A stretch of DNA of 64,000 nt from Malacoraja senta. Taxonomy: Eukaryota. Each line of letters opens with the position of its first letter. The stretch's first letter is position 1. The notes under the pieces were generated by a model. The model had not been told where the DNA came from. It ran no database searches and saw nothing but the letters and a program-made list of their open reading frames with translations. This document shows, piece by piece, positions 1 through 35,619 of the stretch. Made by a program: the position numbers and the translations under genes. The stretch lies in contig CM075994.1 of assembly GCA_038087875.1 (NCBI GenBank), forward strand, positions 11,720,001-11,784,000, written 5' to 3'.

Positions 1-532
1 ACAGTCTTTCCAGGTGATGCAGAGGTTCACCTGCACCTCCTCCAACCTTATATATTGCATCCGCTGTTCCTGGTGTCAATTTCTTTATATCGGCGAGACC
101 AAGCGCGGGATCGGCGATCATTTCACTGAACACCTCCACTCAGTCCGTCTTACCCAAGCGGATCTCCCGATGGCCCAGCACATCAACACCCCCTCCCATT
201 CCCAATCAGACCTTTCTGTTCTGGGCCTCCTCCATTGTCAGAGTGAGGCCCAGCCAAATTGGTGGAACAGCACCTCGTATTTCGCTTGGGTAGTTTACAC
301 CCAACTGTATGAACATTGACTTCTCAAACTTCAGGTAGCCCTTGCTTTCTCTTTCCATCCCCTCCCCTTCCCAGTTCTCCCCCATGTCTTACTGTCTCCG
401 CCTACATTCTTTCTTTGTCCAGCCGCCTCCCCTGACATCAATCTGAAGAAGGGTCTCGACCCGAAACGTCGACAATTCCTTCTCTTCATAGATGCTGCCT
501 CACCCGCTGAGTTACTCCGGCAATTTGTGTCC
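1..532 (+). mobile_element. Penelope-like element 3' end: GIY-YIG endonuclease remnant plus terminal repeat with hammerhead motif
   Basis: ORF 14-319 NLIYCIRCSWCQFLYIGETKR...FTEH is a GIY-YIG motif. It is followed by a CT-rich UTR and ctgaagaagggtctcgacccgaaacgtc at 443-470. Confidence 0.85.
443..470 (+). ncRNA. Minimal type I hammerhead ribozyme motif (representative copy of about 15)
   Basis: CUGAAGA core, one extra A, GGGU-CUCG-ACCC helix II, GAAAC, palindromic ACGU helix III and GUC triplet. This matches the architecture known for Penelope-associated minimal hammerheads. Confidence 0.7.
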
Positions 533-799
533 ACTGCGGTAGCGACCTCCATATATAGTTGTGCAATACAGAGGCCAGTATTGTGCTTTGCAATCTGGAA
601 ATAGTCTCGCCTGCAAGTCAATGGTAGAGTGTAGAATTAGACCGGTACCCACTAGTGAATGTTTCAGGTGCGCTCATACATTCTGTCAATCGGCGGTGAT
701 TAGATTAATGGACAGCTATTTCCAACTCTCTGAGCCTGCAACACCGTGAATGAGCGAAACTGTCCGACTAAACTAAACATTGAGCAGTTTCCAAAAATG

Positions 800-2245
800 C
801 TTCAATCAAGAAATTGAAATTATTTCATCGGCACTCGGGGTGGTGGGAGGGATTGTCCTCGTGAATTTGGAGGCAAAGTGGACGTTAGTGTTTAAGGAAA
901 TTAAATGAACTAATACATCACTGATGCAGGAGGCAGCCCCGATGCAGTCGTAGATGTGGCGGTGAAAGACGGAGGATAGGGCTAATGTACACCTGGAACA
1001 AGGATTGTTCGACGTACCCGACCAAAATGCATGCATATCCAGTGTTCATTCGGGACCACGTGGCTTAACCTTTAACTTGGTGAAAGTGAGAATAGTCTAA
1101 AGATAAGTTGTTCCGGGCGAGGAGATATTGCGCCGGCGGAGAAGAGTGTTAGGAAAGGGGCATTGAATGTGTCTCTATTCGAGGAAGAAGCGGAATGCCT
1201 TGAAACTCAGAGCTGGAGAGAGATGTGATGGAATTGAACGACCATGGTGAGAATGACGCAATGGTGCCTCGATAGCTAATGTTATTAAAGAGATGAAGGG
1301 CGAGTGTGTTGTGGTTGACGGAGGTGTGAAGTAGCTCAAGACGAGGGATGAAATGGAATGGACGTACGTAGAGACGGGTTCAACGGGGCAGCAGAAAACA
1401 ATGACAATGGGTCTGCCAATGCTGTCTGCTTTGTGGATTTTGGGGAGGACGTAGAAGCGGACAGCGTGGGGCCGGGGAATGATGAGGATGGTGCTTGTGG
1501 AGGGGAGATCGCCGGAGGCGCTGTGATCAGAAACAGCCTGGGAGGTGATGGCCTAGTGTGCGTCCGTGGGATCAAGGTCGATGTGTAAGTATGAGGAGGT
1601 GCGCAAGAGCTGATCTCTTACCTCAGTGGGTAGAGGTCAGCCCGCCAGATTACAAAGTCATCTCCCTTATTGGTGGGTTTACTAACAATGTCTGGATTTT
1701 TGCTGCGAGAGGGGAGGGCTCTGCGTTCAGAAGGGGTGAGATCGGTAAGTTGGGTAGAGAATTCAAGGCAGTTGATGTCGCGCCGGCAGATGGAAATAAC
1801 AAGGTCCAGAAAAGGCACACAGGTCTTTACTGTATCGACCCAAAACGTAACAAAGCCACATAATGCTGTGTAACTCCGGGAATCAGGCAACATTCGTGGA
1901 GAACATGGTCTGGTGCTGTTTCGGGTTGGACTAAACCGTATTTAGTCTGAAGAAGGGTTCCGATCCAATAAGTCGCCGATCCATGTTCTCCAAAGACGAT
2001 TTACTCCGCGTTTCGTCTCTGTCTTCGGCATAAAGCAACACTTGAAGATCCTTGTTATTGCGTCACCCATCCTTGTTCCCCAGAGATGCTGCCTGACCTG
2101 CTGATTTACTCCACCACATGTGTCCTTTTTTTGAAATCAATATCTGCTAGTCTGAAGAAGGGTCTCGACCCGAAACGCCACCTATTCCTTCTCATCAGAG
2201 ATTCTGCCTGTCGCGCTGAGTTGCTCCAGCATTTTGTGTCTATCT
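800..2245 (-). mobile_element. Degenerate Penelope-like RT fragment (minus) with adjacent inverted terminal-repeat pieces
   Basis: Minus-strand ORFs retain KPTNKGDDFVIWRADLY (PLE KPADKG..VVW) and YDCIGAAS...NFHxA.KFT. Terminal-repeat pieces occur in both orientations at about 1860-2245. Confidence 0.8.
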
Positions 2246-2635
2246 ATTGAAGATAATGTATCTGCAGACTCCTTCTTGATTCTGTTCTGTGATGAATGTG
2301 GATTTCCCATGTACAGTATCTTCCTGCCACCGCGGGGATTTATCTCGTGGGCACGACATCCCGTCCACGTCTCAAAGACGCAAATTGGTTGACGGAGTTA
2401 ATGGCCTCCATGATATAGTCATATAACAGTTGGGCTGCTGGGGCGTTAGTGGGGATTTGAGTGGCATGTAAGGGGGTACATTGAATAGGCATGCGGAGGA
2501 CAAAGGGGCTGCAAGGAGTACCATGACAGTCGGTATTGACTCTATGGTGCGTATGGTATCTCGGAACGTGAGATGCAATAATATAACCTCGAACACGAGG
2601 TAATTTCGAAAATAATTTTCAGTTTCACCGTGGCA

Positions 2636-32689: not shown

Positions 32690-34245
32690 ACACTTTACTC
32701 ACCGATCCAGCGTGGCCGGCAGAGATCACAAGAGCGCGCCGCAGCAACAATGGGAGCGCAGCTCCGGGAAAAAGTCAGAGAGAACACCGACGTAAGCGGG
32801 GGGGGGGAATCGGAATAGGATAAGAGCCCAAGCCTTCCGTCCACCTCTGCCCAGCATCCTTCTGGCTAACGTCTAGTCCCTGGAGAACAAGATGGATGAC
32901 CTCAGGGCGAGGATTAGATTCCAGCAGGACACAAGAGAATGCAACATCTTCTGTCTGACGGAGGCATGGCTGACCCCGCTGGTGCCGGATTAAGTAATTT
33001 GCCCAACCGAGTCCTTCTCTGTTTTCCGTGCGGACGGAAAGGAAGAATCTGGGAAATCAAAGGGTGGAGGAGTTTGCTTCATGACCAACAATATCTGGTG
33101 CAACCCTAGGAATATTAAGATGCTTTCTCGTTCCTGCTCGCCAGACCTGGAGCACCTGACGATCTCATGCTGCCCATTCTACCTTCCCCGGGAGTTCAGC
33201 TCAGGGATCATCACAGCCATCTACATACCACCACATACGTACACCAACGTGGCACTATTGGCCCTACACGATGTGTTATGTCGGCATCAGAACAAGAACC
33301 CTGATGCCGCTATGGTGGTGACTGGGGATTTTAATAAGGCAAATCTCAAAAAGGTTATGCCTAACTTCTGCCAACACATCACCATGGGGGAAAGAACTTT
33401 GAACCACTGCTACACGGCGTTCAGGAAAGGCTACAAGGCCGTTTCTCTTCCTCCTTTTGGAAAATCTGACCACGCTGCCATTTTCCTGCTGCTGGAGTAT
33501 AAACAATGGATAGTACGGGAAGCAGCAGTGACGAGGGACGTAAAGCGGTGGTCTGACCATTCAGAGGCCATGCTGCAGGATGCACTGACCGATGTTGACT
33601 GAAATATGTTCCAAACAAGTTCCAGAGACGTCAGTGAGTTTGTGGAAGCGGTCACGGGCTTCATTGCAACATTAGCCGATAACATCATCCCCACGATAAG
33701 GGTTAGCATCTTTCCTAATCAAAAACCCTAGGTGGACAGGTCCATTCGCGTTGCCTTGAATGCTCGCACCGCTGCTTACAACTCCAGCCGGGCAATATGG
33801 ACAATATGACAAGGTAGAGTCGTACAGACTGCGATGGGCGGTGAAGTACGCAAAAAGGAGGTACAGGGACAGGATGAAGTCGCAGATGGAGCAGCGGGAC
33901 ATCAGACGCCTTTGGCAAGGGCTATGGACTATAACTAACTACCAGAGCAGCCTCCCCTCAACTGGGAGTGCTGGCTAGCGAGGTTGGAAGGAGGTGCACC
34001 GCTGCGGATGTGCACACATTCTCTGTGTCCGAGCACAACGTGAGGTGGGCTCTGACGCGTGTGAACACGTGGAAAGCTGTAGGCCCAGATGTTATATCTG
34101 GGCGAGTACTAAAGTCTTGTGCTAATCAGTTTGCTCCAGTGCTCACCACAATATTCAACCTCTCCCTGGCCAAGTCCGTGGTCCCTGCCTGCTTCAAAAG
34201 ATCCAACATTGTACCAGTGGCTAAGAATGCCTCCAGCCTGCTTGA
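32690..34245 (+). mobile_element. Rex1/Babar-like LINE 5' part (APE endonuclease and RT start), degenerate
   Basis: LPSILLANV.SLENKMDDL, PFYLPREFSS, GDFNKANL, SDH and KAVGPDVISGRVLKSCA motifs. Confidence 0.8.
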
Positions 34246-34730
34246 ATGAGTAGAGAGGCAAACCAGTACATTAACGGTCTCTTGCTAAGTTGCAATCTGT
34301 ATCCAACAAGATGCACCACAAGCCATGGAAGATCTCAAGCCATCAAAACGTGCAGGAGGTGTGAAGAGTCCAGAGAAACGTTGGCACATATCTCCGGTCA
34401 GTGCCCCAGTGTGAAAAATGCCAGAATAGACACAATTAAATAGCGGGTTGTCCCAAGGAAAAAGTGAGAAAATATGGTTGGTCTACCACTGTTGAGCAAC
34501 ACCAAAGATCTGATGAAGGTGCACTCTGGAAGCCGGATTTGGTATTTGTGAAAGGCCAGTCGGTTGCTGTAGATGATGTCACCAACAGGTTTGAAAACAA
34601 CAACCAATCTCTCACCAAGTCCGGGCAAGAGATGAGTCAGAAATACCAACATCTGACTGAGCAAGTAAGATTAGAGTCAAAAGGACGGGATGTGGAGTAC
34701 TTTGGTTTTGTCAAAAGAGCCAGAAGGCTG
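34246..34730 (+). mobile_element. R2-clade retrotransposon C-terminal fragment (CCHC plus restriction-like endonuclease)
   Basis: CRRCEESRETLAHISGQC, LWKPDLVFVKG..VDDVTNRFE, KYQHL and VEYFGF follow the R2 motif order. Confidence 0.75.
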
Positions 34731-35619
34731 CGATTTTGGAGCACAAGAGCTTTGTTTATTGTCACGTGTACCGATGTACACTGTAAAGCTTTTGTTTCAA
34801 ATCCATAACTGACTCAATATCAAGATCAAAATAAGTGGCAGAATCAGAGGCAATAGACCGATATATGCAAAAATCACAGTGACCACCAATACTGGGCCTA
34901 GACCACTGGCATAGTAGTGTAGGGGGATAATGATTTTGTGTATGAGCCGCGTTAAACCTTAGAAAGTGCATGAAGATAGACAACTCAGTTACTCAGGCAG
35001 CATCTCAGGATAGGAATTGGTGTGTTTCGAGTCGAGACTCTTCTTCAGACTGAAATTAAATAAAGTGCAAGTCTTTGGCTCGATAGTCTTCAGTGAGGAG
35101 GCTTTCAGCAGCAGTTAGGGGAATAAGTTTCAATCAATTTTGTGCGTGTGTCTTGTTATTTAATTGGTAATTTGGCTGCAGTGGTAATGGCAGGCAGTTC
35201 TTTGCAGTGTGTCTCTTGCAGGATGTGTGAAGTCAGGGACACTGCTGGTGCCTCTGACCACCAATATGATGATGAACTCTAATAACAGCAACTTCACGCT
35301 CCATCTTCCAAAATGTCGAGGGGTGGCAAAGTATGGGTACACTACTCAAGTAGCCCTCTGCAAATGGCGGAAATTCTTGCGGATGGAATTGGGTCTCAAT
35401 ACAGGGACAGTCAGTGTCTGTCTGTTTACATTCTGGAAAACTTACACAGCACGAATAAGATATTTTACTGAACATAAGAGCAGTTATTACTTTGTTTTTC
35501 AGATAATCCAAGGATGTTACCCCATGGCACCTGTTTGTCGGCACACATGTTGGTGGTTGTTCTGTTCCGGGAACAGTACCAGATGATTGAACCAAGAAGA
35601 GATTGTAATGAATATGCAG

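What the first reader, a model, noticed from the sequence alone, without database searches (positions are those of the whole stretch)
443..35050. About 15 dispersed minimal hammerhead-ribozyme motifs carried by Penelope terminal repeats and short derivatives
Seen: the motif (gt)CTGAAGA-A-GGGTCTCGACCC-GAAAC-GTC(ac) recurs on both strands. Approximate positions: 443(+), 1947(+), 2152(+), 7435(-), 8589(-), 8885(+), 10958(-), 12200(+), 13272(+), 14505(-), 17308(-), 17395(+), 18998(+), 20163(-), 22943(+), 35022(-); many are degenerate. Established: CUGANGA...GAAA...NUH is the hammerhead core, and Penelope-like elements carry minimal type I hammerheads with a palindromic helix III (here ACGU) that cleave as dimers. 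Inference: most copies are ~100-200 bp units with no adjacent ORF, so a non-autonomous ribozyme-bearing retroposon may be seeding self-cleaving motifs every ~2 kb around a host gene.
Basis: partly seen in the sequence, partly recalled or inferred. Interest (0 to 1): 0.75.

Follow-up and report, generated by a model that had tools for sequence, protein, structure and literature searches.

The report
Decayed Penelope hammerhead end-fragments in skate
The repeats are real minimal hammerhead-ribozyme motifs from the end module of a Penelope-like jumping gene in a skate-type genome, but 14 of 17 have a broken catalytic core and they are likely dead, 5'-truncated insertions of a known kind rather than a new mobile element seeding working ribozymes.

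Summary
All 16 listed motifs are present; one more head-bearing copy and about ten headless or partial fragments were found (28 profile hits, 0 in controls). They match the published minimal hammerhead of Penelope-like elements (PLEs). Three copies follow a GIY-YIG remnant whose closest proteins are Neptune-type PLEs. The short copies show PLE insertion marks: target-site duplications (7 of 19 tested), an optional ~40-nt tail (6 of 23), and a fold-back pair with one tail. Only 3 of 17 keep the whole core, none of the three has an intact tandem partner, the core decays as fast as its neighbour sequence, and none lies between the start and stop codons of the nearby GPR139-like gene. Contigs of four other sequencing runs each give over 50,000 matches, so the family is abundant beyond this locus. 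The 'Penelope repeat' reading holds; 'non-autonomous element seeding self-cleaving motifs' is not supported. One open point: 5' ends pile up just before the ribozyme core, not at its cut site, which suggests run-off at an uncut RNA's start. This scan reported the same kind, including that pile-up, in three other genomes.

The parts
2..335 (+). C-terminal GIY-YIG remnant of a PLE ORF (broken reading frame), upstream of the 443 hammerhead
   Evidence: 70% to a Leucoraja protein, 45% to an 813-aa RT+GIY-YIG protein; Pfam GIY-YIG itself only E=0.12
428..533 (+). 3' terminal repeat with hammerhead 443-470; core whole, helix II 5 bp, helix I only one G-U pair; no tail
839..1797 (-). broken PLE reverse-transcriptase fragment
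1843..1928 (-). headless end-module copy, head-to-head with 1947+
1944..2059 (+). copy 1947+, divergent, core broken (G12, A14)
2061..2145 (+). headless copy starting about 4 nt before the predicted cut site; in tandem between 1947+ and 2152+
2149..2242 (+). copy 2152+, core broken (U16.1)
2636..3546 (-). host gene, coding exon 2 of a GPR139-like receptor
5931..6000 (-). host gene, coding exon 1; no hammerhead copy between 2636 and 6000
7372..7527 (-). copy 7461-, keeps about 65 nt of upstream repeat, core broken (G8)
8497..8616 (-). copy 8616-, tailed, 12-bp exact TSD, core broken (G12)
8876..9014 (+). copy 8886+, tailed, core and helix II broken
10863..10985 (-). copy 10985-, tailed, TSD with mismatches, core broken (G8)
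11553..11612 (-). headless copy, head-to-head with 11640+
12201..12290 (+). copy 12201+, core broken, inside another repeat, candidate 10-bp TSD
13270..13398 (+). copy 13270+, tailed, 8-bp exact TSD, 5' junction inside the core
14439..14533 (-). copy 14533-, 5' half of core missing
14926..14982 (+). headless copy, 10-bp exact TSD; 5' junction at or just after the predicted cut site (blurred by microhomology)
17088..17531 (.). head-to-head pair 17337- (split by another repeat) and 17396+ (tailed); both cores broken; TSD not significant
18085..18300 (+). second GIY-YIG remnant; other repeats lie between it and 18999+
18930..19119 (+). copy 18999+, divergent subfamily, core whole, one helix II mismatch, helix I 2 bp
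20103..20500 (-). copy 20192- with upstream repeat and GIY-YIG C-terminus (20385-20500); core whole, G10.1-U11.1 closing pair, helix I 1 bp
22944..23035 (+). copy 22943+, C3 lost at the 5' junction
23301..23469 (.). fold-back insertion: tailed minus copy joined to a shorter plus copy, 13-bp TSD with 2 mismatches
24630..24672 (+). headless fragment
34975..35053 (-). copy 35048-, helix II G-C to A-U change, core broken, candidate 8-bp TSD

Best explanation
These are 90-130-bp end-module copies of a Penelope-like retroelement, each headed by a minimal hammerhead motif that is mutated in 14 of 17 cases, and they likely arose as dead-on-arrival 5'-truncated insertions made by the full element's own protein. 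Shown by sequence: min-HHR anatomy, GIY-YIG remnants upstream of three copies, TSDs, optional tail, a fold-back pair, CpG-biased decay. Inferred from the Anolis PLE biochemistry (PMC11167929): the RT-endonuclease nicks the target and starts reverse transcription at one of two internal sites about 90 and 130 nt downstream of the ribozyme core, giving untailed and tailed copies. Inferred: the template is mostly uncut RNA, because most copies run through the cut site and stop just upstream of the core; the stop would be the RNA's 5' end when priming occurs in the upstream repeat. Inferred: the ribozyme would work only in the parent element, as a dimer or with protein help, and the dispersed copies would not cleave.
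For: Motif features match Cervera and De la Pena 2014: an extra nucleotide after A9 (A in 15 of 17), G10.1-C11.1 in 13 of 17, palindromic C15.2-G16.2 in 9 of 17 with 7 of the other 8 being CpG transitions. That paper already states that most motifs are single, probably from truncated PLEs, and that some lie 100-700 bp apart on opposite strands. GIY-YIG remnants lie upstream of 443+, 18999+ and 20192-, and the 9 of 9 related proteins examined carry a Cys-rich linker before the endonuclease. TSDs: 7 of 19 units at p<0.05 against 300 random placements, about 1 expected. Tail: clear in 6 of 23 copies, one being the reference; tail and inverted truncated copy are described PLE marks. Decay: non-CpG core 8/119 against downstream 57/661, Fisher p=0.59; CpG sites 4/13 in the core and 11/52 in the stems (13 main-family copies). 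Four runs gave 52,462-68,523 laid contigs each; 442 is the only listed loose-end place at the upstream edge of the core found in all four, with heterogeneous flanks. Window 5' ends: 14 of 22 informative ends fall in -14..+12 of C3, 21% expected, p=2e-5.
Against: No full-length parent element or intact ORF lies in the window, and no whole genome is held, so parent-derived and master-copy-derived short copies cannot be separated by phylogeny. The link of 18999+ to its GIY-YIG remnant crosses other insertions and is inferred. The pile-up test used ends set by eye, a window chosen after seeing the data, and a profile seeded on head-bearing copies. Two headless copies (14926+, 2061+) start at or near the cut site, which a cleaved template could explain. 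Contigs show tandem joints (531 to 442 in 8-10 contigs per run; 471 to 442 with 4-8 spacer letters in one run), so cleavage-competent dimers may exist elsewhere in these genomes. 12 of 19 units gave no significant TSD. Depth sums of contigs are not copy numbers.
Confidence: 0.8

Rival explanations
1. The 90-130-bp unit is a self-propagating non-autonomous element (SINE-like or retrozyme-like) with its own master copies, mobilised in trans by the PLE protein.
For: Short copies appear to dominate: summed contig depth over the ribozyme is 26-91 times that just upstream (420-429) and 5-14 times that at the ORF end (rough, not a copy number). Units are discrete and TSD-flanked. Tandem 90-nt joints exist in contigs. 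A 2026 preprint argues that non-LTR retrozymes derive from PLE repeats.
Against: No shared 5' head (agreement 0.32-0.34), no tRNA gene, only one weak B-box-like match inside the tail among 3 copies scanned. 5' ends are scattered over about 25 nt and nest up to the ORF. The ribozyme is the minimal PLE type, not the canonical type I of retrozymes. The only tandem in the window (1947/2061/2152) has no whole core.
Confidence: 0.12
2. The short copies are reverse transcripts of RNA already cut by the ribozyme.
For: 14926+ begins at or just after the predicted cut site and 2061+ about 4 nt before it.
Against: 17 copies carry sequence upstream of the cut site, and the ends cluster about 30 nt upstream of it. 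In Anolis PLE, uncut RNA is the main template and no RNA reads ended at the cut site.
Confidence: 0.05
3. Some copies have been co-opted to cleave or regulate transcripts of the neighbouring GPR139-like gene.
For: 25 of 27 anchors lie in the first 25 kb, around the gene. 20192- has a whole core on the gene's strand.
Against: None lies in 2636-6000. 20192- is 14 kb upstream of the start codon. 443+ is on the opposite strand. Decay looks neutral. In 3 of 3 whole-core copies helix II has predicted pairing probability near 0, because the core strand pairs downstream. The far 39 kb is filled with other, long retroelements, which could by itself explain the uneven density.
Confidence: 0.03

Closest known systems
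Minimal hammerheads (min-HHR) in pseudo-LTRs of metazoan Penelope-like elements (Cervera and De la Pena 2014, PMC4209133)
   Same: Core with no helix III beyond a palindromic 15.2-16.2 pair, extra nucleotide after A9, G10.1-C11.1, location in the repeat after the GIY-YIG domain, mostly single dispersed copies, opposite-strand pairs.
   Different: Helix II is 5 bp with a 2-nt loop (or 4 bp with a tetraloop) and helix I about 2 bp, shorter than the schistosome motifs (7-8 and 4-5 bp) and like the 2-bp helix I of D. virilis. No cartilaginous fish is named in the parts read or in the one supplement file that could be searched.
Truncated, tailed and inverted insertion units of endonuclease-positive PLEs (Craig et al., bioRxiv 2021.04.23.441226; Frangieh et al. 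2024, PMC11167929)
   Same: Heavy 5' truncation, optional 30-40-bp tail, inverted truncated copy at the 5' end with the tail on one end, copies retaining the uncut ribozyme.
   Different: A pile-up of 5' junctions at the upstream edge of the ribozyme is not described in the passages read. The skate family looks Neptune-type, whereas the element studied biochemically is Poseidon.
Non-LTR retrozymes (PMC7229834; bioRxiv 10.64898/2026.07.22.740005)
   Same: Short, non-coding, type I hammerhead-bearing, PLE-related; dispersed monomers are described.
   Different: Retrozymes are tandem arrays with at least two whole ribozymes, mostly canonical. The window has no tandem pair with whole cores, and its units carry a PLE tail and TSDs.

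Membership tests
PLE minimal type I hammerhead | CUGANGA and GAAA-NN-UH core | tested here: met
   Family majority has it; whole in 3 of 17 copies
PLE minimal type I hammerhead | Extra nucleotide between 9 and 10.1, and G10.1-C11.1 | tested here: met
   Extra base present in the alignment of all 17 (A in 15); G-C in 13 of 17, G-U in 2
PLE minimal type I hammerhead | Palindromic 15.2-16.2 allowing a dimer helix III | tested here: met
   CG in 9 of 17; TG or CA (CpG decay) in 7, AG in 1. Predicted 4-bp duplex only -1.7 kcal/mol
PLE minimal type I hammerhead | Helix II covariation across subfamilies | tested here: inconclusive
   G-C to A-U at pair 10.2-11.2 in 2 of 17 (11640+, 35048-). The third A-U is a misaligned headless row. 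Not among the 40 contig variants shown (29 more hidden)
PLE minimal type I hammerhead | Helix I | tested here: inconclusive
   2 bp in the majority (441G with 472C, 442T with 471A or G); both pairs kept in 8 of 17 copies
PLE minimal type I hammerhead | Self-cleavage as a dimer | not testable with these tools
   Needs an in vitro assay
Endonuclease-positive Penelope-like element | RT followed by C-terminal GIY-YIG, with the ribozyme repeat downstream | tested here: met
   GIY-YIG remnants upstream of 3 copies; separate RT fragments; all match RT+GIY-YIG protein P0120. No single complete element in the window
Endonuclease-positive Penelope-like element | Optional 30-40-bp tail and inverted truncated copy | tested here: met
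   Tail in 6 of 23; fold-back 23301-23469 with TSD and a tail at one end; opposite-strand joints in contigs
Neptune clade | Zn-finger linker between RT and endonuclease | tested here: inconclusive
   Cys-x2-5-Cys-x2-Cys before GIY-YIG in 9 of 9 related proteins examined. The linker of the 443 element lies outside the window; no RT tree was built
Non-LTR retrozyme | At least two tandem units with whole hammerheads | tested here: not met
   Only tandem is 1947/2061/2152, with no whole core. Tandem joints do exist in contigs of other runs
SINE-like non-autonomous element | Own shared 5' head or Pol III promoter | tested here: not met
   No tRNA gene; heterogeneous 5' flanks; box scan on 3 copies with recalled motifs found one weak match in the tail
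SINE-like non-autonomous element | Master-copy subfamilies distinct from the autonomous element | not testable with these tools
   No whole genome held

The most novel reading that the evidence does not exclude
In this skate PLE family the transcript starts 3-5 nt upstream of the ribozyme core, at the conserved CAGT that resembles an initiator, so ribozyme and internal promoter overlap. Reverse transcription primed in the upstream repeat then runs off the uncut 5' end and mass-produces 90- and 130-bp copies that each carry a promoter, some of which could re-amplify as a minimal non-autonomous element. The genomic copies would be a fossil map of the RNA's start and of both priming sites.
Probability: 0.3. 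Interest if true: 0.5.

Novelty: new member of a known kind. Interest (0 to 1): 0.22.

Why it matters
As a discovery it is modest: minimal hammerheads in PLE repeats, their abundance as single truncated copies and opposite-strand pairs were described in 2014. Its use is as material. The role of the PLE ribozyme in vivo is still open, and a family that matches tens of thousands of contigs per run, with two 3' ends and clustered 5' ends, lets one test genome-wide whether the template is cut or uncut and where the RNA begins.

Tried and rejected
Whole-genome search: no genome held. Rfam: no hammerhead hit; the Plastid-psbJ-4 hits (E about 0.003, below gathering) reflect the fold-back hairpin at 23358-23453. 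Viral contigs: 55 matches to the degenerate pattern, not examined further. Sequencing runs: no RNA holder listed, so expression was not tested. The count of structure pairs was run twice with helix I mis-indexed on an alignment that included three headless rows; only its helix II rows are used, and helix I was scored. MFE folds are not more stable than shuffles (z -0.4 to -1.6) and do not show the hammerhead. An inverted pyrimidine-rich block upstream of 22943+ could be a 5' inversion, but its alignment to upstream repeats did not beat shuffles. The initiator idea is weak: CAGT is equally a splice acceptor after a pyrimidine tract (the D. virilis intron ends at helix I). The human consensus BBCABW (search listing) is met in 17337-, 17396+ and 35048- but missed at its first position by the upstream sequence of 443+ and 7461-. 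The downstream element RGACGTGY matches 5 of 8. Lunse et al. (PMC5785218) is not held and is known only through a review. PDB search of the receptor gave nothing at E<=1e-10. Earlier-findings look-ups by place and by sequence were empty.
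Full report
Observation. All 16 positions carry the motif. A DNA profile from 10 copies found 28 hits at E<=0.01 and none in 5 Markov controls. Seventeen copies have a head; the others are headless or partial. Of 27 anchors, 25 lie in the first 25 kb. The rest of the window is dominated by other retroelements. 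Rfam hammerhead models do not hit.

Setting. The best named protein hits are from skates (Leucoraja; Rhinoraja and Leucoraja), so this is a skate-type genome; no assembly is held. The only host gene found is a GPR139-like receptor on the minus strand, with coding exons at 6000-5931 and 3546-2636. No copy lies between its start and stop codons. Untranslated exons were not mapped.

The ribozyme motif. The family majority reads as core CUGAAGA, an extra A, a 5-bp helix II, GAAA, a palindromic CG, UC, and a helix I of about 2 bp. These are the features listed for PLE minimal hammerheads by Cervera and De la Pena (PMC4209133; parts 1-2 of 4 read; one of two supplement files searched, the other could not be read and may list more species). 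That paper also says that most motifs occur singly, probably from truncated PLEs, that some lie 100-700 bp apart on opposite strands, and that a monomer did not cleave while dimers cleaved weakly. In the window only 443+, 18999+ and 20192- keep all 11 invariant nucleotides and H17, and each has a helix defect. A G-C to A-U change in helix II occurs in 2 of 17 copies, which is slim support for covariation. In 13 main-family copies non-CpG core positions differ from the majority at 8/119 and downstream positions at 57/661 (p=0.59; 7 polymorphic downstream columns were dropped, with them 81/736). CpG positions differ at 17-31%. Four divergent copies (1947+, 11640+, 18999+, 35048-) were left out of this count. 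So no selection on the core is seen, though the sample is small. In predicted folds the core strand pairs with the downstream pyrimidine run, and helix II has near-zero probability in all three whole-core copies.

Link to Penelope. The 443+ copy lies about 110 nt after the end of a GIY-YIG remnant. 20192- and 18999+ also lie downstream of such remnants, the latter across other insertions. These pieces and several RT fragments match an 813-aa protein with RVT_1 and GIY-YIG domains. All 9 related proteins examined have a Cys-rich linker before the endonuclease, which Craig et al. (bioRxiv 2021.04.23.441226, passages) give as a mark of Neptune and Nematis. The clade call is therefore probable, not tested by a tree.

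The short units. Seven of 19 units have flanking direct repeats at p<0.05 (8616-, 10985-, 12201+, 13270+, 14926+, 23301-23469, 35048-), so they were inserted at this size. Six of 23 carry a further ~40-nt tail (three more are borderline). The 23301-23469 unit is a fold-back with the tail at one end. Tail and inverted truncated copy are standard PLE marks, and Frangieh et al. (PMC11167929, parts 1-2 of 4) show that the tail lies between two internal priming sites and that uncut RNA is the main template.

Wider picture. Laying contigs of four runs (four organism codes) on 290-589 gave 52,462-68,523 matches each. Summed depth falls steeply just upstream of the core: 26-91-fold at 420-429 and 5-14-fold at the ORF end. 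The tool warns that this is no copy number, and subfamily differences upstream inflate the first ratio. Among the listed loose ends, 442 is the one at the upstream edge of the core in all four runs, with unrelated flanks (agreement 0.32-0.34) ending in AG. One run also lists 438, with a pyrimidine-rich flank. Loose ends at 475-483 reflect differences private to the reference copy. Contigs also show head-to-head joints and a few tandem joints. In the window 14 of 22 informative 5' ends fall within -14..+12 of C3 (p=2e-5, ends set by eye, window chosen after the fact). Most copies thus pass through the cut site, which fits an uncut template.

Mechanism. Most likely the full element's protein primes at one of two internal sites and usually stops early; priming in the upstream repeat would run off the RNA start just before the ribozyme (inferred). 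The D. virilis element has an internal promoter in its repeat (PMC2377424, passages), but the motif evidence for a start at CAGT here is weak and a splice acceptor fits as well. A self-propagating short element remains possible (0.12) but has no positive mark here.

Literature coverage. Five searches returned lists besides one on promoters. None showed a paper on hammerheads of skate or shark PLEs. The 2026 preprint (parts 1-2 of 5 and passages) included one chondrichthyan genome and found retrozymes in it; its supplements are closed. PMC7229834, PMC6765202, PMC6155905 and PMC8384218 were seen as passages only. The library lacks most subscription papers and repeat databases were not searchable, so absence from print is not shown. 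Hammerhead numbering is applied from recalled convention.

Earlier scan notes. Three reports from other genomes describe the same kind.

Verdict. Real, correctly recognised, of a known kind, and mostly dead. Interest 0.22.

Noticed in passing
window 2636-3546 and 5931-6000 (-): Open two-exon GPR139-like receptor gene, a member of a family with many paralogues in cartilaginous fish (840 hits at E<=1e-60).
   Followed up: partly
window 53984-54979 (+) and 56174-59989 (+): An open 331-aa frame followed by an open 1271-aa endonuclease-RT frame: an apparently intact L1-like element. A second similar 336-aa frame lies at 60384-61394.
   Followed up: no
window 29338-30346, 36318-37078, 39576-40296, 49453-49590, 50104-50408: Further broken PLE ORF fragments on the + strand without an adjacent hammerhead.
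   Followed up: partly
unit positions about +30 to +46 after C3 (e.g. window 473-489): The pyrimidine run after the cut site is complementary to the core's 5' strand and is predicted to sequester it. It also resembles a splice acceptor followed by an ATG.
   Followed up: partly
contigs of run X3 laid on window 442-471: Joints going back from 471 to 442 with 4-8 spacer letters suggest short tandem arrays of the ribozyme alone, candidates for working dimers.
   Followed up: no
window 22802-22942: Purine-rich block whose reverse complement ends in the same 13 letters as the upstream sequence of 17337-; possible 5' inversion, not significant against shuffles.
   Followed up: partly
window 62710-63783 (+): Open 357-aa frame with no Pfam match, possibly the start of another retroelement.
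   Followed up: no
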